This document shows positions 3,959 to 50,080 of a DNA stretch of 59,540 nt, piece by piece (position 1 is the stretch's first letter; each line of letters starts with the position of its first letter). A model generated the notes under the pieces. It ran no database searches. It had not been told where the DNA came from and saw only the letters and a list, made by a program, of their open reading frames with translations. The translations under genes were made by a program, and so were the position numbers. Origin of the DNA: a virus (lineage: Duplodnaviria; Caudoviricetes); IMG/VR virus record IMGVR_UViG_3300044974_000308, positions 1 to 59,540 of that record; one strand, given 5' to 3'.

Positions 3959-4614
3959 TAGATCGGCCCGTTGCTGGACTGCAGGAACGTCGAAGTCACC
4001 GTGCCCGTTCCGCTATTTATCAGAACGCGAGCATACTTCGGTGTGAACAAGAAGTTGCTCTGCTGCGAGGAGTTCGCCGCCACAACCGCAAGATCCGAAG
4101 AACTAATCCACGTCATGTCAGCAGGTAGAACAGGGACAAACGGGTCGTTTGGGTCGTCCAGCGTCGACTGAACAGTGTAGTTAGCAGTGCCAGAGACATT
4201 GCACTGGATCGAAATATTCGAGGGCGCAAAGTCATCAAAACGAACCCACGGCGAGCCGCCAACGCCATTCGTGCCGACAATCAAATTGCCGACCGCATTC
4301 CCGGAAATGGTGATGCTCGTGACCGTCAGATAATCCAGAACGGTGTAAACGCCCGTGGTGTTCGGGCCAGTAATCGTCTCAGAGATAATGTCGCCGGCCC
4401 AATTGGTGCCCGTGACAGTGAAGGTTCTAACGCTATCATTCGCGTCTGAGGTAATGAGGACGCGACGCTGCGAACCAAGATAGGCAATGCCATCAGTGAC
4501 AAGCGCGCCATTAAGCGTCAAAGACTGGACGCCGCCGGCAGCGGGCTTCTGCGTCGTGCAAATGCCGTTGTCGTCGGCGGTCGCAAGCGCGATAGAAACT
4601 GTAACAGCCTGCAT
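3958..4614 (-). CDS. Virion structural protein (beta-rich)
   Basis: TFTVTGT...G..ISETITG motif; within structural operon. Confidence 0.6.
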   Translation of the reverse strand: MQAVTVSIALATADDNGICTTQKPAAGGVQSLTLNGALVTDGIAYLGSQRRVLITSDANDSVRTFTVTGTNWAGDIISETITGPNTTGVYTVLDYLTVTSITISGNAVGNLIVGTNGVGGSPWVRFDDFAPSNISIQCNVSGTANYTVQSTLDDPNDPFVPVLPADMTWISSSDLAVVAANSSQQSNFLFTPKYARVLINSGTGTVTSTFLQSSNGPI

Positions 4615-5015
4615 TAGCTTTTTCCCTTTTTAGCGCCGGAAGGCGAAACGGGCCAAGATTGTCTTGCAGGGCCGGTCTTCTTCACAGCAATAGATTTTTT
4701 CTGTTCCTTTGTCATCGAAGCGGCGGCCGCTGCGGGACGGCAGGCAGGATAAGGACGCTTGCCCTTCTCGCCTTCTATTCTACCACATTCTTTGCCAGTT
4801 TTGACATCTCGCCAGTCTTCAGCGAACCATTTTCCAAGGCCGCCGCCAGACGCTTTATTTACGCGATTATCCTCACCAGACCATCTACCGCCATGCTGTT
4901 TATACCATTTAGAAGCCCATGCATTGGCATAGGCAGAAGGATAAACATCAAACTTGGCGCGGGCCGCGGCTTTTGCACGGCCCCAAAGACCGGAATTTTG
5001 AGGTTTAGCCGCCAT
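4614..5015 (-). CDS. Conserved basic phage head-associated protein
   Basis: YPSAYANAW..K.YK..GG.W and GL.KWF.E.W.D...CGR...YP.CRP motifs; KASGG linker. Confidence 0.65.
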   Translation of the reverse strand: MAAKPQNSGLWGRAKAAARAKFDVYPSAYANAWASKWYKQHGGRWSGEDNRVNKASGGGLGKWFAEDWRDVKTGKECGRIEGEKGKRPYPACRPAAAAASMTKEQKKSIAVKKTGPARQSWPVSPSGAKKGKS

Positions 5016-5016
5016 G

Positions 5017-5286
5017 CTAACAATCCCACTTGCGCAGTGATTTGTTGATACGGCTATTTGGATCTGCAGCGGCGGCGGCGCCTGTCAGCTTCTTCTTCAT
5101 GCCGGTCATCCGGGCGCAAAATGAAGAGCGACGAGAGGCGGCTTTATCACTTTTAGCTGCCTGTTCTTTCGATACAGGTGGCTTTAAGTTCATACCTTCG
5201 CGCTTGGCCGAAGCCCGGCCCTTCGCATTGAGACCACCTTCTGGATTTTTACCAGAAGATCTTTGCCAAGCCGGCGTCTTCGCCAT
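5017..5286 (-). CDS. DUF6321-like basic phage protein
   Basis: KNP.GGLNAKGRAS...RR.SFCARM.GM...DPNSRINKSLRKW.C. Confidence 0.7.
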   Translation of the reverse strand: MAKTPAWQRSSGKNPEGGLNAKGRASAKREGMNLKPPVSKEQAAKSDKAASRRSSFCARMTGMKKKLTGAAAAADPNSRINKSLRKWDC

Positions 5287-5303
5287 AACGAATCTCCTGA
5301 AGA

Positions 5304-5331
5304 GAGCGGGGGCCGTTAAGCCCCCGCGTCT
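5304..5331 (-). terminator. Hairpin/possible intrinsic terminator
   Basis: gcggggg-N8-cccccgc stem followed by a short pyrimidine run on the minus strand. Confidence 0.4.
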
Positions 5332-5334
5332 TTA

Positions 5335-5550
5335 TTAGTAAGGCTTCGGCGTAGCGCCACGCGGCGAACCGCTGTGGGCCGAAGAGAAGACGCCGCCGCC
5401 CGTAGCGCGAGCAGGCTTCTTGCCTTTCGCAGCTTCAGAGAAGACCTTGCCGCCTTTTTTCATGCAGCTGCCGCCCTTTTTGAAACCGTTGGTGCCGGAT
5501 TTCGCCGACTTGACGACCGCCGGGCCGTCCTGACCTTCATAAAAACCCAT
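5335..5550 (-). CDS. Small basic GG-motif protein (putative internal head peptide precursor)
   Basis: FKKGG, MKKGGKV, RATGGGV; RBS AGGAGG upstream. Confidence 0.65.
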   Translation of the reverse strand: MGFYEGQDGPAVVKSAKSGTNGFKKGGSCMKKGGKVFSEAAKGKKPARATGGGVFSSAHSGSPRGATPKPY

Positions 5551-7763: not shown

Positions 7764-8363
7764 TTAGCTGATGCCCGTCTGAGCGCCGTTAGCACGGGCC
7801 AGCGAGTCGTTGAACTGCACAATCACAAGATTGTAAGCAGCCGTAATGTCGGTGCCATTGGCGCCGGGCGGGTTAGCGACAACGTCGACAACGCGGAACG
7901 GGAGCGTAGCAGCCGTGCCGGGCGATTCGACATAGGCGCCAGAAATGCCGGAAGCGGCATTGCCCGAACCCATGTTGACGTCGATGTTCTGGCCGATCTT
8001 GTCGAAGCCGACATTCGTGCCGCCAGCCTGAACGAGGAACTTCGCGTTCGGGTCGTTGATGACATAAGCCTCAACGTCCTGCGAGGCGTCGCTGCCCGGC
8101 CAGTAGTTCGACCAAACGATGCGCTTCTGCGACGTCGAAAGGTATTTAACGCCAGCAAGAATGCCGGCCGTCGAGACCGTATTCGCGGGGTTATAAACCT
8201 GAATGTAGCCAGTCGCAGCGCCGGTGACGGGCTGAACGGGATCGCCGAAGTAAATCGGGGTAGTGTAGTCTTTATCAATGGTCATCGTGACCTGCTCATA
8301 CGTCGGAGCGGATCCGGTGCCCTGATATTGACGGAATCCAAAGGGGCTGTTAGTGTTCGCCAC
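7764..8363 (-). CDS. Capsid cement/decoration protein (GTG start)
   Basis: MAN...PFGF...IYFGD.V...AYV.DP...F.VQ; immediately upstream of the capsid gene; RBS AAGGAG. Confidence 0.7.
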   Translation of the reverse strand: MANTNSPFGFRQYQGTGSAPTYEQVTMTIDKDYTTPIYFGDPVQPVTGAATGYIQVYNPANTVSTAGILAGVKYLSTSQKRIVWSNYWPGSDASQDVEAYVINDPNAKFLVQAGGTNVGFDKIGQNIDVNMGSGNAASGISGAYVESPGTAATLPFRVVDVVANPPGANGTDITAAYNLVIVQFNDSLARANGAQTGIS

Positions 8364-10535: not shown

Positions 10536-10555
10536 AGATTTTCTCCTTATTCCAA

Positions 10556-11262: not shown

Positions 11263-12444
11263 TTACTTGCTGCGAGCCTTTTTCGCTTTCGCGATATCCA
11301 TTTTCTGGAGACGACCTTCGCCGCTTTCAGCGCCAGCCATCATGTCCTTATAGGACTTGGCGACTTTGCTGATGCGACCGCCGCTCTTGCGCGCAGGCGC
11401 GTCAGTATGACGCGATTCGATGTCAGTCTTCTGCAGACGACCTTCACCGCTCGCGGCGCCGGCTTCCATGTCCTTATAGGACTTGGCGACCTTCGTGATG
11501 CGACCGCCAGCCTTACGGCCAATCGGCCCAGCGCCCATGCCCGGAATCGGCGGCATAGGCCCCGGCCCCATCGGAGCGCCAGCAGCCGGCGGAACCGGCG
11601 GCATCGGCGGGACAGGCGGAATCGGAGGAACAGCGCCAACGCCGCCCATAGCCGGAGCCTGCTTGCCGGTCTCAATCTTTACGACAATCGACGGCTTGCT
11701 CTTGGCGCGACCGCCGGCCTTGCGCGCAGTGCGGCCGCCCTTCTTGCGACCCTGCACGCGGCTCGTCGACTCAAAGATCTCTTCCGTCTCCGGCAGACCA
11801 GAGCCACTGCGTCCCTTGACGATCTCTTCCATCGACGATTTGTCTTCGGGAGAATAGGACGACGTGCGACCCTTGCCGACGTCTCTCAAGCCCTCTTCCA
11901 GCTTTTGCGCCGGCGACTTGTAGCCAACCAGCTTGTCCAGCTTGCCGACGACGCCATCGGCGCCACCGACCTGTTTCTTGGTGCGGCCGCCCTTCTTGTA
12001 GTTCTCAGCTTTGCCGCGAACCGGCTTCACCTGAACGTCGCCAACGGCTTTCTTATCCAGAATGCCAGCGTCCTTGAAAGCAGCGCCGCCCTTCTTGAAG
12101 GCGCCAACATGCTTCTTGCCGTCACGCTCTTCGTTCGCAGCGCGCACGTCCTTATTAGCGATGCCGTTGCTAATTTCTTTTTCCATAGCGCGGCCGCCGG
12201 TGGCGCGGCGCTTACGGTCGGCGCGAGCCGCCGATTTGCCAGCAGCGACCTTGCCGCCCTTGTTATAGAGGCGAGCGCCTTTGCCAACAGGGCGAGCGCC
12301 GGTCTTTACATCAGCGTTCAGCGGCTCTGCCGGCGACCACGTCGCGGAAGTCGTATCCTGATCCTTATCTAAGGTGCCCGGATTGGCGAGACGACGGGCT
12401 TTCGCCTTGCGCTCGTCACGGGCTTTTTTAGCCAATTCATACAT
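11263..12444 (-). CDS. Basic, repetitive GG-motif polyprotein (putative internal head protein precursor)
   Basis: Nine xxxGG motifs; duplicated RKxGGRIxKVAKSYKDMxAGAxSGEGRLQK unit; K/R-rich. Confidence 0.7.
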   Translation of the reverse strand: MYELAKKARDERKAKARRLANPGTLDKDQDTTSATWSPAEPLNADVKTGARPVGKGARLYNKGGKVAAGKSAARADRKRRATGGRAMEKEISNGIANKDVRAANEERDGKKHVGAFKKGGAAFKDAGILDKKAVGDVQVKPVRGKAENYKKGGRTKKQVGGADGVVGKLDKLVGYKSPAQKLEEGLRDVGKGRTSSYSPEDKSSMEEIVKGRSGSGLPETEEIFESTSRVQGRKKGGRTARKAGGRAKSKPSIVVKIETGKQAPAMGGVGAVPPIPPVPPMPPVPPAAGAPMGPGPMPPIPGMGAGPIGRKAGGRITKVAKSYKDMEAGAASGEGRLQKTDIESRHTDAPARKSGGRISKVAKSYKDMMAGAESGEGRLQKMDIAKAKKARSK

Positions 12445-12489: not shown

Positions 12490-15400
12490 TCATCGCGAAT
12501 ATTTTGATACTACACCAAGCGCGTCTTTAATGACAGAGCCGCCATCGGCATATGCCTTTGGTTCTTCACCGCCAGCGGCCAAGGATTCTTCCATCATTTC
12601 CTTCGGGACATTGATGGAGACCGGGACGCCTCTCACGCCAGACGGCAATGCGCGACGACCAAGCCAAGTGCTCGCCGAATAGAAATCAGTCGGCCATTTC
12701 TTTGATCCATACTTTTCGTAATTGTTAAAGTCATAGACGTCGTTCACAACAGCGTTGCCGGCTTTGTCCAACTTGTAATTGGCGCGGCCAATGACGACCG
12801 GGAACGGGCCGCCTTTGTAGTCTTCATATTGAAGATTGTTTCTTCCTTCAGCCTGACTTTGCACAATAGCGCGGGCCAAGCTTTGCAGATCTTCTTTGCT
12901 AAAGTCTTTTTCTGTGAACGGCTCTTGGCGTCGGTCAAGCACGGCTTCTTTGTAGATCCTTGCCGGCGTGCCTTCATCAAAATAAGACGCAGCGCGAGCG
13001 GCTTTATCAAGCGCCCATGTGACAGCCTTTTCCATATTAGGGCTGTCCATCTTTGGATTTACGCTCGAATATTCCTTGCCGCCGACCGTAAAGGACGGGA
13101 AGACATCGCCCTCATCGCTTACCTTCCCGCCCTGCTCGAATGCCGGCAATCCCTTGAGGATAGCCGCGCGCAGCTTTGGCGTCATCTCAAGAGAATGAAG
13201 ATGGTGAATTCGATCCTCTCCATCGTCAGTTTCTGTCCCAAGATTAATCATGTGATCAAACAACTTCATTTTTATTGATGGGTCTAATTGCGCGACAAGT
13301 TTATTCATGCGCTCTGGCAGCTTCCTATCGTAATAATTGCGCATGCCTTTATTCTCTATTTTTAGATCGCCGCCACGCAATAAATGAACCTGCTTATTCC
13401 CCACGGTTTTTATCGGCTGAGAAAGCAATTTATCCGCAAGATCCTTGCCTATAAAACCGGGCAGAGCCTCTGCATGAACCTTTTCTTCAATATCTTCCAG
13501 CCCCTCAAGACCTTCAGCTAAAAGTTCTTTTGTATCTGGAGACCAGCGAATTGATTCAAATTTTTTATCCAACCCGTAACGATCTGACTGATCTTTCCCG
13601 GCCGTAAAAAGGATTTTTTTATAATCGCCTTTCGCCGCCTCTTGAAGAATGCGTTTCAACGCAAGATCAGTCCATCCTTCTGTGCTTCCGATATGCGGGC
13701 CTTCAGGGACTTCTTCTCCATCACGCTTGTTTTGGCCCCAATCGCTCTGAACTTCTTCGACATGAAGATACGGCTTTTGGAAAGCGAACCCTCTGTCAGA
13801 CATGCGAATATGGGCGAGGACATTTGGCGTTCCCTCCCAATGGCTTGACTGATAATTATTGGCGCGAAAATCAGATTTTACTTTTTTTAGCTGTTCTTCG
13901 GCATCATTTTTTTCTCGCCTGATATCTGAAACACGGCGATATGCCGCCAACGTATCTGGATGACCCGGCTCATTTTCCTCACTAATTCTCTTCCAATCAG
14001 CCATTGCATCTGCGCTTTGGCGAGAAAGCGTATTAAACCGTTCTTTAATCTTATCAAGATCATCAGAACTCTTACTTGGCAAATGCAAAAGCAATTCGCG
14101 ATAATTACCTACTGTGAAATCATCGCGAGGATCACTTAATTGATACTCTCCATACTTTGCATCATTAGAGCCTTTTGAACGGTATTGCGCCATATAAGGG
14201 CGAGCCTGCGCATTTAGAGCGTCAGACTCCTCAAGTTTGCCCTGCATTTTTAGCGCATAGGCTTTGTCCATAAGTTCTTTGCCAACAGCATACGGATCTC
14301 TGAGAACTTTCTCCTGAACCTGTGGCAGGTTCGTCTGTAGGTGCCGCGCAACTTCCTGCGGATCCACGCTCTTCTGCCCAGCAAAAGCGTCTCTAACGCC
14401 TGACCAATCAAGTTCCTCCGCTTTGACATTCGGAGATCCTCTCAGCTTGTTCAGGATCTGATCAATCGGCGCCTTCTGAGGTATTTTAGCTGCCGCCTCA
14501 GAAGCGGCGCTGTAAAAACCCATTGGCGTCGTTTCGCGGTCGTCGTCGACGGCGCCGCCTTCAGCATAGCCCATGCCGCCGAAGCCGCCGCCGAAGCCGC
14601 CAAGACCGCCAAAGAACGACCCAAGGCCCATGCCGAACATCGGCCCCCAGACGTCATAGAAGCCGCCGGTCGGATAGTTCGAAGGCTGGCCCATCGGCAT
14701 TGGCTGCTGCGGCGAAGGCGATGGATAGCCGCCGCCAAAGCCTTGCACATAATTCGGCAAGCGCGGGATAGACCCTTGCTGTGCAGCCGGCAGAACCGGC
14801 GGCCGCAGAAGACCAGTCGGCGTCTGCTGGGCTCGGGGATAGGGAGAGGCGTCTGGATAGCCCGGCACGCTTATCTCATCAGGCTGGCCCTGAACATTTA
14901 TTTCATTCTGGCCCTGCGGAACGTTGCTGGTCGTAAAGCGCGACCGCGAGCCTTTGAAGCCCGGCGTGAAGCCCTTGAAGTTTCCGCCCATGCCACCGCC
15001 GTAATACTTGCCGGGGCGATGATCGATTACCGGAACCGACGAGACGCCAAGTTCTTCAGCAGCCGTTGCACGATGACGACCATCTTCTGTTCCATTACGA
15101 TAAAGTTTAAGCGGGCCAAGAGGATCGCCAGATACAATATCACGTTTGAAATTATCAATAACCTGACGATCACCTTTTCCGATCTTGAGAGGCCGCGCTT
15201 CGTCAAGAAACTTCTCCGGCTTCATTTTCTTAATCTTGGCGGCTTTCGCGTCTTCTGTCATCGCAAGCGGATAATCGACGCGGCCGCCTTCCTTGCGCAT
15301 ATGGATGTTTGGATACTTCCACTGCCCGGCAAAGCTAGGCGTATTGCTGCGCGACACAATCGGCGCGGCGGCGAACGCCCATTCAATCAGACGGCGCCCG

Positions 15401-16431
15401 AATTGCTCAGGCTCTTCCTTGTCAAGCGCTGGGCCGGGGATTGAGCCGCCGTAAGCGCGCTGCATGCGGCCCTCAACCTCATGCGGAGCATGCATGAAAA
15501 AAGCTTTGATTCCGACTTCATTTTTGACGTCACCGCCATCAGCATATCGCCGCACTGTCTTTATGTGCTTAGGATCGAACACGACATAATTATGCGTCCC
15601 GTATTTATTCCCGCGAGTTCCTGAATCATTATATTTTATTCCGCGAATACCTGCAGACGCTAAAACATTACTTGCTTTTGCTTGAGCCTCACCTTTAGGA
15701 ACACCGCGCTTGAACATATCAGCTGAAAATTCGCTTTCTGAGAGACGCCGATAAAATTTATCCGCCATCATCCTTGATGCTTTTTCAGTCCACCCTAATG
15801 GCCTAAATAACCCAACGGCAGACGGCCCAAAATTGTTTTCAAAGTTCACAAGCCCGGCTTTGTGAAGGGCGTCGATAACTTCTGGATGCTGATCCTCAAG
15901 CGGCGCATCCCAATCCAATAAATGTTCTGCCCCGGCATTTATGCGAACTTCATACATATGGCCCGGGTTTTTTTGTATAACCCCGCCTTCTGGGAACAAA
16001 AGTTTTTTCAAGTCTTCGGCAACGCCGTCATATCTTGGATCTTTTGGGCTATAAGAATCCAATAACTTCTTTGCCGTCTCGATCCCTTCTTTCAAGCCGC
16101 CAGATTGGATTGCTTTTGAAATATTTACATTGCTAATATCGCGATATGGATCAAATGATTTTCCATCTATGGCATATGTTCCTTGAGATAAATTATCACG
16201 ATACTGTTTTGCCACATCTTCATTTTCAGCAAAATACAACCCGTGGCCGAACGCCTGCGCGCCTTCTCCTGTGCCGATAAATGCAGGATCAAATTCATCA
16301 AACTTATGAGGTGAGCCGTGATAGGCAGTCACGCCCATCGCCGGCCGGATATCTTCGTGCGTTTCAACGCCAGTTGCCGGCTCGACGCCCGTCGCGGGCA
16401 CTATGTCGTCATGCGTATCGACGGGCATCAT
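12490..16431 (-). CDS. Large polyvalent virion protein (ART-like + ParB-like + two uncharacterised domains)
   Basis: AYHGSPH.FD.F...GTGEG.Q.FG.GLYFAE...NYVVFD (ART-like); DGRHR..AA..LG...VPV (ParB/Srx-like); FYS...VEEVQSDW domain; separated by xxxGG motifs. Confidence 0.75.
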   Translation of the reverse strand: MMPVDTHDDIVPATGVEPATGVETHEDIRPAMGVTAYHGSPHKFDEFDPAFIGTGEGAQAFGHGLYFAENEDVAKQYRDNLSQGTYAIDGKSFDPYRDISNVNISKAIQSGGLKEGIETAKKLLDSYSPKDPRYDGVAEDLKKLLFPEGGVIQKNPGHMYEVRINAGAEHLLDWDAPLEDQHPEVIDALHKAGLVNFENNFGPSAVGLFRPLGWTEKASRMMADKFYRRLSESEFSADMFKRGVPKGEAQAKASNVLASAGIRGIKYNDSGTRGNKYGTHNYVVFDPKHIKTVRRYADGGDVKNEVGIKAFFMHAPHEVEGRMQRAYGGSIPGPALDKEEPEQFGRRLIEWAFAAAPIVSRSNTPSFAGQWKYPNIHMRKEGGRVDYPLAMTEDAKAAKIKKMKPEKFLDEARPLKIGKGDRQVIDNFKRDIVSGDPLGPLKLYRNGTEDGRHRATAAEELGVSSVPVIDHRPGKYYGGGMGGNFKGFTPGFKGSRSRFTTSNVPQGQNEINVQGQPDEISVPGYPDASPYPRAQQTPTGLLRPPVLPAAQQGSIPRLPNYVQGFGGGYPSPSPQQPMPMGQPSNYPTGGFYDVWGPMFGMGLGSFFGGLGGFGGGFGGMGYAEGGAVDDDRETTPMGFYSAASEAAAKIPQKAPIDQILNKLRGSPNVKAEELDWSGVRDAFAGQKSVDPQEVARHLQTNLPQVQEKVLRDPYAVGKELMDKAYALKMQGKLEESDALNAQARPYMAQYRSKGSNDAKYGEYQLSDPRDDFTVGNYRELLLHLPSKSSDDLDKIKERFNTLSRQSADAMADWKRISEENEPGHPDTLAAYRRVSDIRREKNDAEEQLKKVKSDFRANNYQSSHWEGTPNVLAHIRMSDRGFAFQKPYLHVEEVQSDWGQNKRDGEEVPEGPHIGSTEGWTDLALKRILQEAAKGDYKKILFTAGKDQSDRYGLDKKFESIRWSPDTKELLAEGLEGLEDIEEKVHAEALPGFIGKDLADKLLSQPIKTVGNKQVHLLRGGDLKIENKGMRNYYDRKLPERMNKLVAQLDPSIKMKLFDHMINLGTETDDGEDRIHHLHSLEMTPKLRAAILKGLPAFEQGGKVSDEGDVFPSFTVGGKEYSSVNPKMDSPNMEKAVTWALDKAARAASYFDEGTPARIYKEAVLDRRQEPFTEKDFSKEDLQSLARAIVQSQAEGRNNLQYEDYKGGPFPVVIGRANYKLDKAGNAVVNDVYDFNNYEKYGSKKWPTDFYSASTWLGRRALPSGVRGVPVSINVPKEMMEESLAAGGEEPKAYADGGSVIKDALGVVSKYSR

Positions 16432-16438: not shown

Positions 16439-16642
16439 TTACTTGAAATGGTCGGACAGCTTTACCTTTTCAGGCTCTTGCTCATGATCAACAGAGCCGC
16501 CAGTGGCGAACGCAGGCTCGCCCGGCAGTTCATCCCATTCATACCATTCTTTGCGCGTATAATTCGACGAGTCGTGATGCTTGTCGAGATTTGGGAACTG
16601 CGCATGAAAGTAGGGCGCATCTAATTTGCGAGTATCAGCCAT
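16439..16642 (-). CDS. Small protein with FATGGSV motif
   Basis: Packed ORF between GP88-like and polyvalent genes. Confidence 0.55.
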   Translation of the reverse strand: MADTRKLDAPYFHAQFPNLDKHHDSSNYTRKEWYEWDELPGEPAFATGGSVDHEQEPEKVKLSDHFK

Positions 16643-35839: not shown

Positions 35840-35842
35840 AAT

Positions 35843-42683: not shown

Positions 42684-42684
42684 A

Positions 42685-43479: not shown

Positions 43480-43487
43480 CGATTACC

Positions 43488-45308
43488 TCAAATGTTTTCG
43501 TTGGCGACTGCAAGCGCCTTTGCGACTGCTTCGTCAGGCTGTTCAAGAAGCGGCTTTGTTTCTTCCTGAGATATCTTATGCGCACGCATTAGCTGCGCAA
43601 GAAGCTTCTGCGCTGTCATGCCGACGCGGCCGCCGCTGGCTCGCTGCGTGCGGTCTTCTTCAGGCATAAAGGAAACATTGCCTTCGATTGGCTGCTGAAG
43701 CTTCGTCTGTCCTGCGACAGCGCCCGGAGTAGATAGTTCCGGCATAGACGGCATTGGCTCACGCAATGAAGTAGGAGCCATGCTTTCAAGCCACTGCCCC
43801 GGAAGCTTGAATGGCCGTTCAAGACGACCCATGCCATATGCAGTCTTGGCCGCGATTGACGGAACAGTCATCGCCAGCGCCGGAAGCGCCTTGACGCCAA
43901 CGCCGGCCATCAGGCCGCCGGCGAGCGTCTGGGTCAACCGCGGCGAATGCGCCTGCGCCAGTTCCTGCCCGGCGATATGGGCGCCAATATCAGGGTTGCG
44001 TGCCTCTAACTCATCAAGAAGTTCTTTCTTGTATGGATTTTTCTGAGCGCGAAGCAAAGCACGAAGATCGCGACCTGTCGTCTGTCCCTGACTGCGCGCA
44101 ATCAGTTCTTTTTCAAATTCGCGAATGTCTTTGCTGGCGTTCGCGTATTCGTCCATGATGTCTGCGTAACGCGGATCTTTCGACGCAATAGTCTGCTTGG
44201 CCGCATTTCTCGCGTTCGAAATGATGTCTTTTGACGCCGGATCGACGTATTTGTCGCCGATCCGATCAAGCGCCTTCTTCAGATCATCAAATCCTTCCAT
44301 CGTCTGATAGTAGGGATTTTCGGCTGCAGCGCGCTTAAACTCATTGACCTTCTGAGTCGCTTCCAAAATCGCTGCAGCAGCGTTCGGGTCGACTTCAATG
44401 CCTTCCGGGCCAGAATAGGCACGACGGCGCGCGTCAAGAAGCGCGTTCTCTACCGCATTGAACGGCAGAATATCGTTTCTGGCGTTGATGTCGGCCATGC
44501 CGGAAAGATAGTTTTCGCTTCTTTCCTTGACGACGTCGTTGATCGTATTGCGGACGTTCTTGACGACCTGCTCAGGCGTTACGGCGCCAGAAGCCGATTC
44601 CCAGAAAGCCGGATTGAGCGTATGGCCGGATTGACGAGCCGCCTGCAGGGTCTCTGAAGAAAGACCGGAAGCGGTATGAAGGCCGCCCATAATCGTCGCC
44701 GGCACAACGCCAGCGACAGTCTTCGCCGCTTTGAGCGGGGCGGTGAAAGGCGCAAGTGTCGCAGACTGAACAGCGCGGCCAGCTGCTCCGGCCATGCCCG
44801 GCAAGCGGCCGGCGCCAGTCGCCACGCCGCCGATGTCGGCAAGCACGCCAACAGGGTCTTCAGCAAAAGCCTTTTTGAAGCCTTCGGTCGAGCCGTATTT
44901 GTCTTTGTAGTGCGAGATCACGGCATTGATGACGGCTTCGTCGCTTGCCTTCTTGGCTGGCTCTTCTTCATAGCCCAAAGCGCCAAGCGCTTTAGACGCT
45001 GCGCCATACCCAAGCTGCCCAAGATTGACGGCCGTCTGGGGGATATTCTCAGGATAAAACGGCTCAATCATCGACTTTGCAGTCGTGACTGCGCTCTCCG
45101 GGAAAGCCTTGAGCGCACGGCCGGCTACTTCGCCATAGCCCATCGTCTTGTATTGGTCTTTCGGATATCCCGATTCTTCAAACTTGTAATCGAAAAGCGG
45201 ATTGCTCGACGCCGGAGCACGCTCAGGCTCTCGCCTTGCAGGCTCACGGCGCGCGGGCTTTTCCTCTGCCGTCTCTTCGAATGAATAGTCGAGAAGAGGA
45301 TTAGCCAT
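43488..45308 (-). CDS. Ejection (DNA transfer) protein
   Basis: Helical and A/G-rich; DPVG.LAD, FD.LK motifs; C-terminal RASGGRV; position after the large ejection gene. Confidence 0.65.
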   Translation of the reverse strand: MANPLLDYSFEETAEEKPARREPARREPERAPASSNPLFDYKFEESGYPKDQYKTMGYGEVAGRALKAFPESAVTTAKSMIEPFYPENIPQTAVNLGQLGYGAASKALGALGYEEEPAKKASDEAVINAVISHYKDKYGSTEGFKKAFAEDPVGVLADIGGVATGAGRLPGMAGAAGRAVQSATLAPFTAPLKAAKTVAGVVPATIMGGLHTASGLSSETLQAARQSGHTLNPAFWESASGAVTPEQVVKNVRNTINDVVKERSENYLSGMADINARNDILPFNAVENALLDARRRAYSGPEGIEVDPNAAAAILEATQKVNEFKRAAAENPYYQTMEGFDDLKKALDRIGDKYVDPASKDIISNARNAAKQTIASKDPRYADIMDEYANASKDIREFEKELIARSQGQTTGRDLRALLRAQKNPYKKELLDELEARNPDIGAHIAGQELAQAHSPRLTQTLAGGLMAGVGVKALPALAMTVPSIAAKTAYGMGRLERPFKLPGQWLESMAPTSLREPMPSMPELSTPGAVAGQTKLQQPIEGNVSFMPEEDRTQRASGGRVGMTAQKLLAQLMRAHKISQEETKPLLEQPDEAVAKALAVANENI

Positions 45309-48300
45309 TATCGGGCTCCCAAGAAGTAACGGCTCATGTGCCGCTCTTTCGGGATATTATACCTTTGCTCAAAGTATTCGTCGATCTGTTCAGGGCTAAC
45401 CTTGCGCTGTTTCATCATCTCAAAGACGACGGATCCGGGCGCAACGCGCTTTTCTTTGTCGCCTCTATCAAGCAGCATGCTCTTAATCGCATTCTGCTCT
45501 TCGGCATATTTCGCAGAGTCGTTTTTGCCCTCAAAGTCTGACATTGCGCCAGAATAAATACCGCGGCTGATTTTGCCCCATTCATCAGCATGACGTTTGC
45601 GGTCAATCGCCTTCTGATTGGTAATCATGTTTGAGGCCGCCACTTGAGCGGCTGCCCCCGGCTCTTTAGACAGATTGGGGAGCGCTTCCATGTTGGCGAT
45701 AAGCGCGCCGACGGCTTTCTGATCGGCGCCCTTCGCTGCGGCCTGCGCCTGCAGCGTGGTCAATTTGGTCATGACGTCATTATATTCTTTGGCGTTGCCA
45801 AAGAAGTTCTCGCCAGCGTCGAGACCGGGGATAGCGCGAACAGCGCGATTTAGAGCGCCAATCACGTCAGACGTAAATTCATAACCGGGGCCGGGAGCCG
45901 CGAGCAGTTTGCCGCTTGAAGCCTTTGCTACGATATCCGCCATCTCATTGTAGAAGATCTTCTGCTGATTGGCGGACATGGCGTCACGATTGGCGCCTTC
46001 GATATATTCGCGAGACGCCGTGCGGATGACGGGCTGGTCGGCGCTTCTCTGAAGATTGCGCGTTTCTGCCGCAGCAGCCTTCGCGGAGCCTTCGTCGAAA
46101 TTAACGCCGGGGATAGCCGCAGCCTTCGGCGCCGGAGCCGGCGCAGGAGGAACTGCGGTCGTCTTTACAGGCGGCAATTTCGGAACGTCTGCGGCGCCGG
46201 GAGCGCCTGCAGGGGCTGCGGGGCCGCCTCCTACAGGCGTCCCTGCCGGGCCGGGGGCTTGACGCGCTGCGGGAGTAACAGCGGAGCCCGTGGTCGACAA
46301 GCCGCGGTGAATCTGGCGCGCAAGTTCCGCGGCCGCGCTGCCGCCGGCGAGCGGCTCGCCGCTCTCCATCCATTCGTAAAGCGGCTTCATGCTGCCATCC
46401 GACAGCTGGACGAACCAGTTCGGATTTTCGGCGCTGCCAAAGTTCTTGAAGCCAAGATCGCGGGCTTCCTGCAGGACGCGGAACGTCTCTGCCGGCACCT
46501 TCTCCGCTTCTTCGCGGGTAAGCATACCCTGCGAGCGCAGCAGTTCCTGTTCGGCGCGCAGCTTCTCCTGTTCTTCCAGCGTCGTGCCCATATCCAGATA
46601 GCCCTTGGCGCCAGCGCCAACGCCTTGCAGGATAGCGGAGCCAAGGAAGCGGCTGGGGGATGACGCCATAGCGCCAAGGCCCATCAGCGCCGGGATAACC
46701 AGACGCTCAGGACGCTCGGAGATCTCTTCCGTAAAGCTGCGGTCTTTGGGCGCAACAGACGAGCGGCTTAGAACTTCGCGCGCCGGGCCGACGCCTTCAG
46801 ACGAAGCGCGGAAAGACCGCGCGCCGGCCGGAAGCTTGGACAGGTCGAAGTCGCCGCCGCCCATGACGCCAGCAACATATTTCTGCGTCTCTTGCGGCAG
46901 GTAGTTCAGATAGTCGCGGCCGGTCGCTTCGGAACGCGCAAGCGCACGACGGACAGCGCCGGGGCCGGCATTATACGCAGCTGCGGCGAGATCGGTTCTG
47001 CCAAAGTCGGAAAGCTGCTTATTGTAATAGGCTTTGCCAAGCGCTTCGTTGTAATCAGGATCGCGACGATATTTCACCGGGTCATATTCAACGCCAGCAA
47101 GCTTGGCGGCTTCGGGAGCCGTGCCGGGCATAACCTGCGCAATGCCTGCGGCGCCCTTCGGCGATGTTAGCGTCTCACCGCTTTTATCAAATTGATGACC
47201 GCCGGATTCGCGATGGATCATGCGGCGCCAAGTCTTGTCGGCGTCACTCTCTTCCTCCGGCTTAACTCCGCCATCGGCGTAGCCCAGACCCTGCTTCAGG
47301 CGACGGTCGGAGAACATCGCCATGACAGCCGGAATAGCAGTTGCCGCGCTGGAAGCCATCGACGCGATGTCTTTGCCCATGCCGACGATCTCAGACAGCT
47401 TGCTGCGACCGGAGCCGCCGCCAGAGGCGTCGTCATCGTCTTTGGGCTTTTCAAGTTCAGCCGGCTTCTGCGCCTTCAGGACGTCAGAAGGGAAGTATTC
47501 AGGAGCGCCGCCATCGGCATATCCAAGAAGGCCCTTCAGGCTCGAAAGCGCGCCGGGCTTGTCCTTCGTGCCAGACAGCCAGTCTTTGGCCGCGCCGATA
47601 TCTTTGCCGTAACCAACAAGTTCCTTGCCGGTCGACATGATCTGGCCTAAGCCAGTCTGCTCAGGCGGCCGCGCCACGGGAGGCGGAGAGCTAGGCGTCA
47701 TCAGACGGCCCGGCTGGATAGCGGTCGACGGGACATAGCCTTTCGCGCCGCCGCCGGGCATAGCGCCGGCTTCCTGCCCATAGAGGCCCGGCATAGCGCC
47801 GCCAAGGCCGCCATACATCTTCCTGTGCGCTTCGGCCAAGGCGGACATTTCGCCGCTTGTCAGGCCGCCATCGGCATAGCCGCCGGCAGAATAGCCGCCG
47901 CGCCAATAATCCTTGCCCGGCTCCATATCAATGACTGCGCCGCCCATGCGGGCGTTTTCAGTCGCGCGGTCATAATCGACGACGTCATAGCCGGTCTGCG
48001 GGTCGCGAGCGACAGCGTCAGGCCGCACTTCGTCAGACATAAGGCCAATCTGCGCAGGGCCAGTCTGGCCTGTGCGAGGATCCGTAAGGCGGTAGCTGTA
48101 GACGCCCTCGCCGCTATCCAGATGGCCTACCCGCTCAGGCTCGCCGCCGCGTGCATATGCCTGCCCCAGACCCTGCTTGAGACGCGGATCGGAGAAGAAG
48201 GGCTGATATTGCGGCTGCTGCCAATTGTATTGGGTCGATCCAAAAAGTGGCCCGGCGCCAGTGACGGCGCCAGTATAGAACTGCGACGTCTGGAACGGAT

Positions 48301-49018
48301 ATGCGCGCTCTTGCAGGAACTGGTTATAGAGCGCCTGAAGGCCGGCTTGCTGCGTCTGCTGCTCGACAGTGCCAGCGCCCATAAGCGCCTGCGCCGCCTG
48401 CAGGCCAGCCTGCTGGGCGCCAGCGCCCAACGTGCCGAATTGGCCGCCGGCCTGAAGCTGGCGCGCGAGATCCGTCTGGGCCGCCTGCATCGCCGGCGCA
48501 TAGCCGGCCTGCATGATGTCGCCCATCGTCTTGCCGGTAGCGAGATCCTGCTGGCCGCGAAGAAGCTGGCGTTGAAGACCGGCGCGCTCACCGCCGAAGG
48601 CGCCGCCCTTGATGGCCTCCGCCTGCTGCTGGGCGCGCTGCTGGCCCTGCTGCTGGCCCAGAAGAGCCATCGTAGGGAGAGCGACCGAACTGGTGTAAGG
48701 CGAAATATATTTGCCGACGATCTCAGGCGCCGACGTCGTGCCGGCCAGTCCCGTCAGGCCCGCTGCGGCGCCATAGAAAGGCTGCGCCGCCTGCTGTTGC
48801 TGCATGATGTTCTGGGTAGCAAGCCGCTGCGTTCCCGTGAGGGGCGCGACAAAAGCTTCCGGGCTTTCTGAATAGCGCTGGAAGGGCGTCTGCGAGACCT
48901 GCTCTGCGCGACCTATCGCCTTTTGATAAGCGGCGCGAACTTCCGGCGGAATCTGGGTCGATTGCACCGACTGCGGCATGAAGGGATTAATAGGAGCGGT
49001 TGAAGTTTTGCTACCCAT
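45308..49018 (-). CDS. Large ejection protein with S74-like domain and lytic transglycosylase
   Basis: Q/A/G-rich pilot-like N-terminus (Y.SPY, GAFGG.R); SD.RLK...IGLM..EV.P.AV...VDY; ES.G...S.KGA.G.AQ.MP.TA...AAYNAGPG...ET..YV. Confidence 0.8.
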   Translation of the reverse strand: MGSKTSTAPINPFMPQSVQSTQIPPEVRAAYQKAIGRAEQVSQTPFQRYSESPEAFVAPLTGTQRLATQNIMQQQQAAQPFYGAAAGLTGLAGTTSAPEIVGKYISPYTSSVALPTMALLGQQQGQQRAQQQAEAIKGGAFGGERAGLQRQLLRGQQDLATGKTMGDIMQAGYAPAMQAAQTDLARQLQAGGQFGTLGAGAQQAGLQAAQALMGAGTVEQQTQQAGLQALYNQFLQERAYPFQTSQFYTGAVTGAGPLFGSTQYNWQQPQYQPFFSDPRLKQGLGQAYARGGEPERVGHLDSGEGVYSYRLTDPRTGQTGPAQIGLMSDEVRPDAVARDPQTGYDVVDYDRATENARMGGAVIDMEPGKDYWRGGYSAGGYADGGLTSGEMSALAEAHRKMYGGLGGAMPGLYGQEAGAMPGGGAKGYVPSTAIQPGRLMTPSSPPPVARPPEQTGLGQIMSTGKELVGYGKDIGAAKDWLSGTKDKPGALSSLKGLLGYADGGAPEYFPSDVLKAQKPAELEKPKDDDDASGGGSGRSKLSEIVGMGKDIASMASSAATAIPAVMAMFSDRRLKQGLGYADGGVKPEEESDADKTWRRMIHRESGGHQFDKSGETLTSPKGAAGIAQVMPGTAPEAAKLAGVEYDPVKYRRDPDYNEALGKAYYNKQLSDFGRTDLAAAAYNAGPGAVRRALARSEATGRDYLNYLPQETQKYVAGVMGGGDFDLSKLPAGARSFRASSEGVGPAREVLSRSSVAPKDRSFTEEISERPERLVIPALMGLGAMASSPSRFLGSAILQGVGAGAKGYLDMGTTLEEQEKLRAEQELLRSQGMLTREEAEKVPAETFRVLQEARDLGFKNFGSAENPNWFVQLSDGSMKPLYEWMESGEPLAGGSAAAELARQIHRGLSTTGSAVTPAARQAPGPAGTPVGGGPAAPAGAPGAADVPKLPPVKTTAVPPAPAPAPKAAAIPGVNFDEGSAKAAAAETRNLQRSADQPVIRTASREYIEGANRDAMSANQQKIFYNEMADIVAKASSGKLLAAPGPGYEFTSDVIGALNRAVRAIPGLDAGENFFGNAKEYNDVMTKLTTLQAQAAAKGADQKAVGALIANMEALPNLSKEPGAAAQVAASNMITNQKAIDRKRHADEWGKISRGIYSGAMSDFEGKNDSAKYAEEQNAIKSMLLDRGDKEKRVAPGSVVFEMMKQRKVSPEQIDEYFEQRYNIPKERHMSRYFLGAR

Positions 49019-49053
49019 TTACAGGCTCCAAATCGCAGTCGGTGTGCAGATCA

Positions 49054-49548
49054 TTATTCTGCCGCCTCTTGATGCCACTCGCCGGTCTTGCCGCCGTAGA
49101 GGAAATACGCCCCGGCCGGTTGACCAAAGAGCCGCTCATACATCTTTACCTTACTTCTCGTTCGGGTGTTAGAGACAACGCCGATGACAAGAGGTATTCC
49201 AAGTTCATCCGAAACTTTTTTTCCAAATTCGCAAAGCTTACGAGCCCTTCCTCCCTTGGCGCTGCGAAATTCCGGGTGAACAAAGACGCATTTTTCTTCT
49301 ATTATTGGATCATCACTATACCACAAGGTTCCGATTCTGAGCAAAACCAAGCCTTCTAGTTGCTGACCCGGCTCGCCGATCAGGCCCATGACGCCAAAGT
49401 CCTGCGTCAATCCAGCCCAAACGTCGGCCAAAAGCTTTTCTGTGTTGGGGACAGATATCCCGTTTTCGCGGCATGCCAGAACGGCAAGTTCCATTACGGC
49501 GTGGATATCATCTTTTGTCCCTATCCTAACTTTTACCTCTTCACTCAT
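49054..49548 (-). CDS. GNAT-family acetyltransferase-like virion-module protein
   Basis: FVHPEFRS..GGRA.KL motif A; K...YER.FG. Confidence 0.7.
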   Translation of the reverse strand: MSEEVKVRIGTKDDIHAVMELAVLACRENGISVPNTEKLLADVWAGLTQDFGVMGLIGEPGQQLEGLVLLRIGTLWYSDDPIIEEKCVFVHPEFRSAKGGRARKLCEFGKKVSDELGIPLVIGVVSNTRTRSKVKMYERLFGQPAGAYFLYGGKTGEWHQEAAE

Positions 49549-49561
49549 CGCAAGTCCCTTC

Positions 49562-50080
49562 CTAATCCTTGCGTGGCCCCGGTAACGCTTTCAGTGTATT
49601 GATCAGCTGCGCTCTCGCCAGCTTCACAAACTTGTCCATCTCGTTATGCGCGAGATCCATATCCCCAAATATATCCTGCAGAGATTCAGGCGTGACAATA
49701 TATTCGCCGCCAGCCGCGACGATTTCAGTCGCTTCCCCGCCGCCATAGACCTGCCGGCCAAAGACTTTGTTTAGCGCCCGGAAGCCAGCCATCGTGTTGC
49801 CCTCTCCAAGAGAGGAAACAATATCAGCCGGAATAACATAGCAGCCAGAAGGAACGTGGATAGGTAAATGATCAGTCCTGCCAGACACATTGCTATGGAT
49901 TGGGCCAACGTGAGCTTTGTCCTTCTCAGGCGCGTCAGGAAGATCGCCGCCTTCTGCGCGCGAACGTCGAGCTGTTGATAGAGCAGCCGCTACGGCCTGA
50001 TCCTGCGGACGGCCAGCGTGGATCATCTCAGAAATATTCGATGAGATCGTTTTCTGTGATTTTCCCATTTTGAGCGGCAT
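49562..50080 (-). CDS. Small GG-motif protein with 'D.LP....G.YV.PA..V..LG' domain (candidate maturation peptidase)
   Basis: MPL..GKS..IS.NI.E...QAVA.ALS.AR leader; RAEGG; two GxY(V/I) units. Confidence 0.6.
   Translation of the reverse strand: MPLKMGKSQKTISSNISEMIHAGRPQDQAVAAALSTARRSRAEGGDLPDAPEKDKAHVGPIHSNVSGRTDHLPIHVPSGCYVIPADIVSSLGEGNTMAGFRALNKVFGRQVYGGGEATEIVAAGGEYIVTPESLQDIFGDMDLAHNEMDKFVKLARAQLINTLKALPGPRKD

What the first reader, a model, noticed from the sequence alone, without database searches (positions are those of the whole stretch)
4614..50080. Genome-wide xxxGG tag punctuates head/ejection proteins: candidate virion polyprotein processing or packaging system
Seen: about 30 copies (manual count) of [FYMRK]-x-x-G-G, often followed by x-V/I, in about nine morphogenesis-arm proteins. 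Examples: 5335 (FKKGG, MKKGG, RATGG); 11263 (nine copies); 12490 (YADGG, RAYGG, RKEGG, YAEGG, FEQGG, YADGG); 16439 (FATGG); 16644 (MAKGG, MADGG); 43488 (RASGG); 45308 (YARGG, YWRGG, YSAGG, YADGG x3); 49562 (RAEGG). In the multidomain proteins the tags sit at domain boundaries, and I saw no comparable enrichment in early or replication genes. No conventional prohead protease was recognised. Inference: the tag is a protease site and/or capsid-targeting signal that lets unrelated domains be loaded into the head and released separately.
Basis: partly seen in the sequence, partly recalled or inferred. Interest (0 to 1): 0.85.

Follow-up and report, generated by a model that had tools for sequence, protein, structure and literature searches.

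The report
Portable Gly-Gly tag on phage cargo
A short Gly-Gly sequence tag really does mark the proteins this phage carries inside its head and injects into the host, and it most likely acts as a loading or docking signal, although cutting at the tag is not excluded.

Summary
The window is a complete 59.5-kb podophage genome. It occurs 4 times against 5.8 elsewhere, so about half the loose matches are chance.

The real motif is sharper: [Y/F/M/R]-[A/K]-x-G-G-[R/K/S/D]-[V/I]. A matrix built from relatives finds 19 sites in six window proteins against 0.14 expected.

In relatives the sites occur only in head cargo and ejection proteins. They are absent or nearly so from the portal, capsid-module, nozzle and fibre ORFs, and they lie at homology break points.

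The tag is usually paired with an amphipathic "xxALxx" helix. Together they form a portable N-terminal leader or C-terminal tail on unrelated cargo domains.

No protease was found. In two relatives the tag sits 2-3 residues from the C-terminus.

- **Best reading:** an encapsidation or docking tag, confidence 0.4.
- **Rival:** GG-directed cleavage, confidence 0.27.

The receptor is unknown, and the complex prediction never returned a result.

The parts
17871..18095 (-). N-terminal leader (residues 1-75) of the first post-portal cargo protein (GP88 fusion, ORF 16644-18095). It holds an amphipathic helix at residues 4-13, tag copies MAKGG (nt 17985-17999) and MADGG (nt 17913-17927) flanking a conserved 19-residue element, then a second AL-type helix.
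   Evidence: The leader is found fused to GP88, ART-PolyVal, methyltransferase and LPD23 domains in 27 database proteins.
16496..16510 (-). Tag FATGG near the C-terminus of the 67-aa ORF 16439-16642.
   Evidence: PSSM 9.3.
15283..15546 (-). Three tags in the polyvalent protein (ORF 12490-16431) after the ART domain: YADGG (15532-15546), RAYGG (15445-15459) and RKEGG (15283-15297).
   Evidence: (ART-PolyVal at residues 36-84).
14554..14568 (-). Tag YAEGG directly before the large conserved domain (residues 627-1100) of the polyvalent protein.
   Evidence: The same junction is seen in L009, L014 and L016.
13126..13140 (-). Tag FEQGG at the end of the conserved 'GLPAF' domain. In relatives this site is followed directly by the C-terminal tail. 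In the window a further stretch of about 190 aa follows it.
12493..12552 (-). C-terminal tail of the polyvalent protein: tag YADGG followed by the amphipathic AL helix to the stop codon.
   Evidence: Of 36 distinct C-termini in relatives' cargo blocks, 34 carry [FYMRKHLW]xxGG in the last 45 aa.
11263..12444 (-). Basic 393-aa internal protein with nine loose tag copies, seven of them at 6 bits or more. The last two copies head a duplicated conserved unit of about 35 aa.
   Evidence: The family is conserved upstream of the GroES-like gene in relatives. Tags are conserved islands between indel-rich linkers.
5335..5550 (-). 71-aa Gly/Lys-rich ORF with three loose copies (FKKGG, MKKGG, RATGG). All are below the PSSM threshold, so membership is uncertain.
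43491..43643 (-). C-terminal module of the 606-aa ejection protein (ORF 43488-45308): tag RASGG (43629-43643) plus about 46 aa ending in an AL-type helix.
   Evidence: The tag lies about 45-55 aa from the C-terminus in most of 33 distinct homologues of roughly 30% identity.
47267..48157 (-). Linker region of the SLT-bearing internal virion protein (ORF 45308-49018). It holds tags YARGG (48143-48157), the run YWRGG/YSAGG/YADGG (47864-47908), YADGG (47507-47521) and YADGG (47267-47281). They lie between an S74-like segment and the SLT domain.
49946..50080 (-). N-terminal 45-aa module of the 172-aa protein (ORF 49562-50080). It ends in an AL-type helix and the tag RAEGG (49946-49960).
   Evidence: (phrog_2423). 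GG at residues 44-45 is at least 90% conserved in 30 homologues.

Best explanation
The tag is a genuine short linear motif under selection at the protein level: [Y/F/M/R]-[A/K]-x-G-G-[R/K/S/D]-[V/I]. It is usually paired, within about 20 residues, with an amphipathic helix of the type hydrophobic-hydrophobic-x-x-A-L-x-hydrophobic-hydrophobic.

Tag plus helix form a portable module. The module sits at the N-terminus, at the C-terminus and in the inter-domain linkers of proteins that travel inside the capsid. These are the polyvalent anti-host cargo encoded after the portal gene, a polybasic internal protein, and the T7-core-like ejection proteins.

I propose that the module is an encapsidation or docking signal. 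It would bind a repeated site inside the procapsid (scaffold, inner capsid wall or portal/core). Any domain that carries it would then be loaded, and new cargo domains could be swapped in as tag-flanked cassettes.

Shown: the motif, its restriction to cargo, its position at domain borders and termini, its portability, and its conservation across relatives.
Inferred: that it binds anything, and what it binds.
Cleavage at GG after loading may occur in addition but is not required by the data.
For: 1. Specificity (sites of at least 6 bits per 1000 aa in relatives):
- Cargo block 5.88 (this is the training set), SLT-protein family 0.80, 606-aa family 1.03.
- Portal ORFs: 1 site in 48,881 aa.
- ORFs upstream of the portal: 0 in 72,004 aa.
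- GroES-like to capsid genes: 0 in 21,276 aa.
- Nozzle side: 0 in 40,490 aa.
- Fibre side: 1 in 12,546 aa.
- Reversed-sequence controls: 0-1.

2. Portability:
- The N-terminal leader is fused to GP88, ART-PolyVal, methyltransferase or LPD23 domains (alignment).
- The C-terminal tail (tag plus AL helix) follows unrelated domains. 34 of 36 distinct C-termini in delimited cargo blocks carry the loose tag.

3. The same helix type appears at the N-terminus of the first cargo protein, the C-terminus of the polyvalent protein, the C-terminus of the 606-aa protein and the N-module of the 172-aa protein. 8 of 17 distinct internal sites in relatives are followed by a clear helix of this kind.

4. Conservation extends past GG to +1 and +2 and to the helix. 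That is more than a scissile site needs.

5. In two relatives the tag lies 2 residues (Caulobacter phage RW) or 3 residues (MW202675.1) from the C-terminus.

6. Codons differ between copies, so selection acts on the peptide and not on the DNA.

7. No protease was found.

8. Precedents:
- The T4 capsid targeting sequence is shared by diverse internal anti-restriction proteins (PMC3012670, passages read).
- Encapsulin targeting peptides bind the interior of an HK97-fold shell (PMC10960027, passages read).
Against: - One tag per polypeptide would suffice for loading. Yet the polyvalent protein has a tag at nearly every domain border, and the basic protein has 7-9, some only 8 residues apart. That layout looks like a polyprotein.
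- N-terminal leaders that end in the tag resemble cleaved propeptides.
- No receptor was identified.
- The PSSM was trained on the cargo block, so its density there is circular. Only the arm-2 families and the negative controls are independent.
- Sinorhizobium phage phiM5, whose putative internal virion protein matches the window's 606-aa protein at 25% identity over 75% of the query, shows no site scoring 3 bits or more in the five virion proteins I scanned. The tag is therefore not needed by all such cores.
Confidence: 0.4

Rival explanations
1. The tags are cleavage sites. Cargo is made as polyproteins or pro-proteins and is cut at or after Gly-Gly by a protease of unrecognised type (phage or host). 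The cut would release individual effector domains, remove terminal targeting helices, and chop the polybasic protein into small DNA-binding peptides, as adenovirus does with its core precursors.
For: - Sites lie at homology break points and at almost every domain border of the polyvalent protein.
- Leaders end in the tag and are followed by variable linkers.
- The residues after an internal GG (S/x-V-I-D-x-A-L...) resemble the natural N-terminus of the first cargo protein. A cut would therefore give each fragment a similar N-terminal helix.
- The basic protein has closely spaced sites.
- GG-directed viral proteases exist. The adenovirus protease recognises (M/I/L)XGG-X and (M/I/L)XGX-G (PMC7998265, passage read).
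- One untested candidate exists. The C-domain of the 172-aa protein has invariant His, Ser, Asp and Glu residues in 30 homologues and no family assignment.
Against: - No protease family was found by Pfam or PHROGs in the ORFs scanned, which included all large structural ORFs.
- There is no HExxH anywhere in the proteome.
- Only 1 of 48 cargo proteins of relatives hits a putative metallopeptidase family.
- The conserved 198-aa head-module protein has no invariant Ser or Cys and no PDB fold match at E<=0.001.
- The capsid protein is 303 aa with a separate coiled-coil scaffold gene. This layout usually goes without a maturation protease (my own knowledge, not a tool result).
- Tags 2-3 residues from the C-terminus make no sense as domain-releasing cuts.
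- The register differs from adenain. The hydrophobic residue sits five positions before the putative cut, not four.
Confidence: 0.27
2. Tag and helix are two halves of a self-association device. The extended tag of one cargo protein or domain would pack against the amphipathic helix of the next. Cargo would then form a non-covalent chain or condensed body in the head and leave through the tail in a set order.
For: - The two elements alternate along leaders, linkers and tails.
- Separately encoded cargo proteins keep both elements at their termini.
- The basic protein is multivalent.
Against: This is pure inference from the layout.
Confidence: 0.12
3. The motif has no recognition function. It would be a hinge and helix-cap inherited with each domain cassette, or a recombination junction. 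In that case it persists because domains are exchanged at these linkers.
For: - Domain gain occurs exactly at a tag. Relatives have '...GLPAF-x-x-GG' followed by the tail, whereas the window has about 190 extra residues and a second tag there.
- Break points cluster at tags.
Against: - Flanking residues at -3, -2, +1 and +2 are conserved across relatives of roughly 30% identity. A mere hinge would not need this.
- Codons differ between copies, and the shared DNA is at most about 15 nt. That is too short for homologous exchange.
- The motif is absent from linkers of non-cargo proteins.
Confidence: 0.12
4. The pattern is chance in glycine-rich proteins.
For: Several listed or loose matches score below zero on the PSSM, for example KQVGG, YWRGG and FPEGG.
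Against: - 0 of 300 shuffles reach the observed count.
- 19 sites against 0.14 expected with the PSSM.
- The motif is present in relatives with the same protein specificity.
Confidence: 0.01

Closest known systems
T4 capsid targeting sequence (CTS) of internal proteins
   Same: A short shared peptide on otherwise unrelated, fast-evolving anti-host proteins directs them into the prohead (PMC3012670, passages read). Here a shared leader or tail sits on ART, GP88, methyltransferase and other domains.
   Different: - From my own knowledge, the T4 CTS is N-terminal only, about 10 residues long, and is removed by the prohead protease gp21 at L/I-x-E.
- Here the tag is Gly-Gly based. It occurs at either terminus and inside linkers, is paired with a helix, and no protease was found.
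Encapsulin targeting peptides / cargo-loading peptides
   Same: These are short, usually terminal peptides on cargo, often after a flexible linker. They bind a site on the inner face of an HK97-fold shell protein (PMC10960027, passages read). The terminal position and portability match.
   Different: - The sequence differs.
- Here there are many copies per protein, and the cargo must later be ejected.
- Binding to the capsid protein is untested.
Adenovirus protease (AVP) sites in core and capsid precursors
   Same: These are Gly-Gly-containing sites in proteins packed with the DNA, including basic core precursors (PMC7998265 passage read; PMC4246237 abstract only).
   Different: - The consensus (M/I/L)XGG-X has a different register.
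- A dedicated cysteine protease is encoded by adenovirus, and none was found here.
- This is a tailed phage with an HK97-type capsid.
Polyvalent proteins of phages and conjugative elements (Iyer et al. 2017, PMC5512222)
   Same: The 1313-aa protein and its relatives are such proteins. They contain ART-PolyVal, InPase, LPD23 and PBECR5 domains and are encoded next to the portal gene.
   Different: - That paper proposes processing by zincin-like metallopeptidase domains (passages read).
- Here there is no HExxH, and only 1 of 48 relatives hits a putative metallopeptidase family.
- The words 'glycine' and 'linker' do not occur in that paper's main text, so the tag is not described there.
Double-glycine leader peptides of bacteriocins (C39 peptidase substrates)
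   Same: An N-terminal amphipathic helix is followed by Gly-Gly (recalled knowledge). The layout resembles the short leaders.
   Different: - No C39 peptidase or ABC exporter is present.
- The spacing of the hydrophobic residues differs.
- The tag also occurs internally and at the C-terminus.

Membership tests
Polyvalent protein (Iyer et al. 2017) | A large multidomain protein built from effector domains typical of the class. | tested here: met
   ART-PolyVal E=4e-08 in the window protein. Among 48 cargo proteins of relatives: ART-PolyVal in 16, and InPase, LPD23, PBECR5, GNAT and methyltransferase in 1-2 each.
Polyvalent protein (Iyer et al. 2017) | A zincin-like metallopeptidase domain for self-processing (common in the class, not universal). 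| tested here: not met
   No HExxH or HxxEH in any of 87 ORFs. 1 of 48 relatives has a weak DUF6782 hit.
T4-type capsid targeting sequence | A short conserved terminal peptide shared by unrelated internal proteins. | tested here: met
   Leader shared by proteins with different domains. Tail shared by different polyvalent proteins.
T4-type capsid targeting sequence | Removal by a prohead protease encoded in the head module. | tested here: not met
   No protease family hit in the head-module ORFs. The 198-aa protein has no protease-like fold match.
T4-type capsid targeting sequence | Binding to the scaffolding core. | not testable with these tools
   The complex prediction of the tail with scaffold, capsid protein and the 198-aa protein never returned a result.
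Encapsulin targeting peptide | A terminal cargo peptide that binds the inner face of an HK97-fold shell protein. | tested here: inconclusive
   The terminal peptide is present. The capsid protein matches major head protein families (phrog_371 E=2.4e-12). Binding was not tested.
Adenain-type polyprotein processing | The consensus (M/I/L)XGG-X or (M/I/L)XGX-G. | tested here: not met
   Here the preferred hydrophobic or basic residue is three positions before the first Gly and A/K is two before it. The register therefore differs by one.
Adenain-type polyprotein processing | A virus-encoded cysteine protease. | tested here: not met
   No such family in the ORFs scanned. Small ORFs and the 172-aa C-domain remain unassigned.
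RHS / YD repeat (the relative's 382-aa protein is annotated 'yenB') | Regular YD repeats of about 20 residues detectable by Pfam. | tested here: not met
   0 Pfam families for the 393-aa protein at E<=0.01. Spacing of copies is irregular, from 8 to 76 residues.
Peptidase S74 (intramolecular chaperone, self-cleaving): considered as the source of cleavage | An S-D-x-R-L-K start followed by the conserved domain of about 60 aa. | tested here: inconclusive
   The orthologous segment of MW202675.1 hits PF13884 at E=1.4e-12. The window segment gives no hit but aligns to it with an insertion that carries a tag. This domain cuts only its own N-terminal bond (recalled knowledge), not Gly-Gly sites.

The most novel reading that the evidence does not exclude
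This lineage of tailed phages matures its head contents the way adenovirus does. A Gly-Gly-specific protease of an unrecognised fold would cut tag-delimited polyvalent cargo into separate effectors and a polybasic precursor into small DNA-condensing peptides. The candidate is the invariant His/Ser/Asp/Glu-rich C-domain of the tagged 172-aa internal protein. The helix next to each tag would act as the loading signal.
Probability: 0.12. Interest if true: 0.9.

Novelty: new variant of a known kind. Interest (0 to 1): 0.62.

Why it matters
Polyvalent proteins and ejection proteins are the payload phages inject to disarm the host. How they get into the head is known for very few phages, such as T4, P1 and the portal-bound MuF/gp7 type.

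Here a simple, portable tag is shared by all internal proteins of a large, mostly uncultured group of podophages. The portal query matched at least 599 stretches in viral contigs. Distant cultured kin that carry the motif include Pelagibacter phage HTVC027P and Planktothrix phage Pag-Yong1.

If it is a loading signal, three things follow:
- It explains how these phages swap cargo domains freely.
- It gives a sequence rule for predicting injected proteins in metagenomes.
- It offers a handle for loading foreign proteins into capsids.

If it is a cleavage site, it implies a new phage protease.

Tried and rejected
- **Chance or Gly-rich background:** rejected.
- **DNA-level signal or recombination linker:** codons differ between copies. 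GGC at the first Gly is 24 of 24 in tags against 95 of 116 in other GG pairs, only a mild excess over a strong genome-wide GGC preference. Rejected as the main cause.
- **RHS/YD repeats:** rejected.
- **Zincin processing protease:** no HExxH.
- **'SprT-like' label:** the relative's positional counterpart of ORF 24042-24680 carries this label. The window protein has no HExxH and no family hit apart from a sub-threshold DUF1192 match.
- **198-aa head-module protein as protease:** the AF2 model has mean pLDDT 72.3, and no PDB match reaches E<=0.001. This is not evidence of any function.
- **172-aa protein:** no PDB sequence match, no Pfam family, an Atlas lead only at chance level, and no likeness to the relative's 'peptidase M15' protein.
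- **Complex prediction (C-terminal tail against scaffold, capsid protein and 198-aa protein):** the queue was full or the tool gave no usable answer at 11 attempts. The cap was then reported as used. There is no verdict.
- **Megablast to GenBank phages:** no match.
- **Literature:**
  - 'YADGG' gave 1 unrelated paper.
  - 'Gly-Gly' + 'prohead protease' + 'cleavage' gave 0 papers.
  - 'internal virion protein' with diglycine terms: none of the 8 listed papers contains the term 'internal virion protein'.
  - Supplements could not be seen.

Full report
**What the window is.** The window is a complete virus record of 59,540 bases with direct terminal repeats.
- It encodes a portal of the SU10 type, a large terminase, a GP88-domain protein, a 1313-aa protein with an ART-PolyVal domain, and a 1236-aa protein with an SLT lytic transglycosylase domain.
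- There is no close DNA match among GenBank phages.
- By portal protein, the nearest record is the uncultured MW202675.1 at 61% identity. Pelagibacter phages HTVC027P and HTVC023P, Roseobacter phages CRP-901 and CRP-902, Caulobacter phage RW and Planktothrix phage Pag-Yong1 follow at 27-36%.
- The head module reads, on the minus strand: terminase (20652-22277), portal (18088-20445), cargo genes (16644-18095, 16439-16642, 12490-16431), a basic 393-aa protein (11263-12444), a GroES-like protein (10556-10948), an acidic coiled-coil protein that I take to be the scaffold (9624-10562), a 198-aa protein, a 199-aa protein with weak C1q likeness, and the capsid protein (6837-7748).
- The second arm (41889-54268) holds a 766-aa ORF that I take to be the nozzle. 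This rests on position and on the relative's 'phage stabilization protein' label. Pfam gave only a sub-threshold beta-barrel match.
- That arm also holds a 172-aa protein, a GNAT-like protein, the SLT protein, a 606-aa protein and fibres. The layout resembles the internal core genes of T7-like phages (my own knowledge).

None of the 300 shuffles reaches 49.
- In the other 50 ORFs it occurs 4 times against 5.8±2.5.
- So there is a real excess of about 25 copies, and about half of the loose matches are background.
- A narrower pattern that I derived after seeing the data, [FYMRKH][AKS]xGG, gives 28 against 5.7±2.4 in the arms and 0 against 1.4 elsewhere.
- The exact pentapeptide YADGG occurs five times in two proteins.

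**Independent support from relatives.** The portal query matched at least 599 stretches in viral contigs, and I kept 80 loci.
- The genes between the portal and the GroES-like gene vary greatly in size and content.
- In 893 distinct GG contexts from those genes, position -3 is enriched for Y (x3.9), R (x2.8), M (x2.6) and F (x2.5). Position -2 is enriched for K (x3.1) and A (x2.5). Position +1 is enriched for R (x2.6) and K (x1.9). Position +2 is enriched for V (x4.2) and I (x2.4).
- A position matrix built from them finds 19 sites of at least 6 bits in the window. All lie in six proteins: basic protein 7, polyvalent 5, SLT protein 3, GP88 fusion 2, 67-aa ORF 1 and 606-aa protein 1.
- The controls give 1 site in reversed sequences and 0.14±0.37 in 200 shuffles.
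- Three training loci are nearly identical to the window, so this test is not fully independent.

The cleaner test is the density table. A second set of 78 loci was found through the SLT protein and had no part in training. In that set:

| ORF class | Sites per 1000 aa or count |
|---|---|
| SLT-protein family | 0.80 per 1000 aa |
| 606-aa family | 1.03 per 1000 aa |
| Portal ORFs | 1 in 48,881 aa |
| ORFs upstream of the portal | 0 in 72,004 aa |
| GroES-like to capsid genes | 0 in 21,276 aa |
| Nozzle-side ORFs | 0 in 40,490 aa |
| Fibre-side ORFs | 1 in 12,546 aa |

Reversed-sequence controls give 0-1. The motif also appears in distant cultured kin:
- Two sites in a 112-aa ORF of HTVC027P.
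- Three sites in two ORFs of Pag-Yong1.
- In Caulobacter phage RW the scans found none, but the printed C-terminus of its 580-aa protein reads RYMDGGRV.
- Sinorhizobium phage phiM5 has none at 3 bits or more in the five virion proteins scanned.

**Protein-level or DNA-level?** Flanking codons differ between copies. The first Gly is GGC in 24 of 24 tags, but GGC is also 95 of 116 in other isolated GG pairs and 1000 of 1571 Gly codons overall. The shared DNA is at most about 15 nt. Selection therefore acts on the peptide.

**Anatomy beyond the pentapeptide.** Four features emerged.
1. The tag marks homology break points. Among 62 large cargo proteins, 32.1% of 2240 internal BLAST HSP ends (pairs of at most 85% identity) lie within 10 residues of a site, against 4.7% for random positions. 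HSP ends are not independent counts.
2. The first gene after the portal starts with a conserved leader: an amphipathic helix, a tag, a conserved 19-residue element, a second tag, Pro and a second helix. In the protein database this leader is joined to GP88, ART-PolyVal, methyltransferase or LPD23 domains (27 hits). Many relatives have a shorter version, a helix followed by [Y/F]-A-x-G-G-x-P.
3. Polyvalent proteins end in a tail made of the tag followed by a helix of the same kind, as in the window's YADGGSVIKDALGVVSKYSR. In loci where the cargo block is delimited, 34 of 36 distinct C-termini carry [FYMRKHLW]xxGG within the last 45 residues.
4. The same helix type closes the 606-aa protein and precedes the tag in the 172-aa protein. 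8 of 17 distinct internal sites of relatives are followed by a clear helix of this kind within 20 residues. Two more are followed by the leader's 19-residue element.

The 606-aa family keeps the tag about 45-55 residues from its C-terminus in most of 33 distinct homologues of roughly 30% identity. In the basic-protein family the tags are conserved islands between indel-rich linkers (17 sequences).

A domain gain can be seen exactly at a tag. Relatives read '...GLPAF-x-x-GG' followed by the tail. The window has about 190 further residues and a second tag before the same tail.

**Search for a protease.**
- Pfam and PHROGs on all large structural ORFs and ten others gave no peptidase family.
- No ORF contains HExxH or HxxEH.
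- Of 48 cargo proteins from relatives, 16 carry ART-PolyVal and only one gives a weak hit to a putative metallopeptidase family.
- The conserved 198-aa head protein has no invariant Ser or Cys. Its AF2 model (mean pLDDT 72.3) has no PDB match at E<=0.001.
- The SLT protein contains a segment homologous to the self-cleaving Peptidase_S74 chaperone domain. The ortholog in MW202675.1 hits it at E=1.4e-12, the window copy is undetected by Pfam, and the two align. That domain cuts only its own start (recalled knowledge).
- One open candidate remains. The C-domain of the 172-aa protein has invariant His62, Ser63, Asp70, His71, Asp86, Glu93, His145 and Asp149 in 30 homologues. It has no family or structural assignment. 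Its structure prediction failed.

**Weighing the mechanisms.**

For a loading or docking signal:
- The module is terminal, portable and shared by otherwise unrelated proteins that must all end up inside the head. This parallels the T4 capsid targeting sequence (PMC3012670, passages) and encapsulin targeting peptides (PMC10960027, passages).
- Conservation runs beyond GG into +1, +2 and the helix.
- Tags sit 2 and 3 residues from the C-terminus in Caulobacter phage RW and MW202675.1.
- No protease is evident.

For cleavage:
- A tag lies at almost every domain border.
- The basic protein has closely spaced copies.
- Leaders end in the tag.
- The sequence after an internal GG resembles the natural N-terminus of the first cargo protein.
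- GG-directed viral proteases exist (PMC7998265, passage), though with another register.

I put docking at 0.40, cleavage at 0.27, tag-helix self-association at 0.12, a function-less hinge or junction at 0.12, and chance at 0.01. The remainder is left for readings I have not thought of. The one computation that could have shifted these odds was a complex prediction of the tail with scaffold, capsid protein and the 198-aa protein. It never ran to a result.

**Comparison with the known, and novelty.**
- The carrier proteins are polyvalent proteins in the sense of Iyer et al. (PMC5512222). That paper proposes zincin peptidases for processing, and its main text does not contain the words 'glycine' or 'linker'.
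- Searches for 'YADGG', for Gly-Gly with prohead protease and cleavage, and for diglycine terms with 'internal virion protein' found nothing on such a tag. Supplements were closed.
- I therefore rate it a new variant of a known kind: a cargo signal of tailed-phage heads, with a new sequence, a new two-part layout and use at every domain border.

**Side result.** The N-terminal 45-residue module of the 172-aa protein occurs in at least 1658 representative clusters at E<=0.001. In most of the best 150 it starts at residue 1, on proteins of 44 to 992 residues. 100 of these 150 have a GG between residues 37 and 62, which is a loose criterion.

Noticed in passing
window 47924-48226 (-) and 47267-47314 (-): The SLT-bearing internal virion protein has a segment homologous to the self-cleaving Peptidase_S74 intramolecular chaperone domain, starting FFSDPRLK. 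The ortholog in MW202675.1 hits PF13884 at E=1.4e-12, while the window copy carries an insertion and is missed by Pfam. A second short copy of the start motif (FSDRRLK) lies just before the SLT domain. An S74 domain inside an ejection protein is unusual.
   Followed up: partly
window 49562-49915 (-): The C-domain of the 172-aa internal protein has invariant His, Ser, Asp and Glu residues in 30 homologues, which looks enzyme-like. It has no Pfam, PDB or Atlas assignment. Its structure prediction failed.
   Followed up: partly
window 10556-10948 (-): A GroES-like gene (Cpn10 E=1.3e-3, below the Pfam cut-off; phrog_3188 E=1.7e-7) lies just upstream of the putative scaffold gene in the head module. 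It is conserved in HTVC027P, Caulobacter phage RW and Pag-Yong1, where it is annotated as a co-chaperonin.
   Followed up: partly
window 4614-5286 (-): Adjacent DUF5872 (E=1.9e-11) and DUF6321 (E=8e-20) proteins sit next to the 71-aa Gly/Lys-rich ORF. In PHROG families the DUF6321 unit appears as the C-terminal end of much longer proteins.
   Followed up: no
window 50688-51188 (-): By eye, this 166-aa ORF inside the structural arm looks like an HNH/AP2-type homing endonuclease. It was not scanned. The relative MW202675.1 has an 'intron associated endonuclease' elsewhere in its structural region.
   Followed up: no
window 29229-29732 (-): A 167-aa ORF in the early region contains an exact YADGG. 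It loses to overlapping plus-strand ORFs in coding score and is probably not a gene.
   Followed up: partly
window 26182-26640 (-) and 22592-23218 (-): The 152-aa ORF at 26182-26640 matches terminase small subunit PHROGs (E=3.3e-22). The ORF at the usual small-terminase position (22592-23218) gave no Pfam hit.
   Followed up: no
window 7764-8363 (-): The 199-aa protein just upstream of the capsid gene shows weak likeness to the C1q-like NC1 domain of collagen VIII (E=0.005). It may be a head decoration protein.
   Followed up: no
window 15000-15100 (-), residues about 445-475 of the polyvalent protein: By eye, there is a ParB/sulfiredoxin-like 'DGRHR' signature between two tags. No Pfam hit was found for residues 291-490.
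   Followed up: partly
window 35027-36929 (-): A PAPS-reductase-like protein, a RuvC-like resolvase and a DNA methyltransferase lie in a row, with a primase-helicase at 32278-34545. This looks like an ordinary replication module.
   Followed up: no
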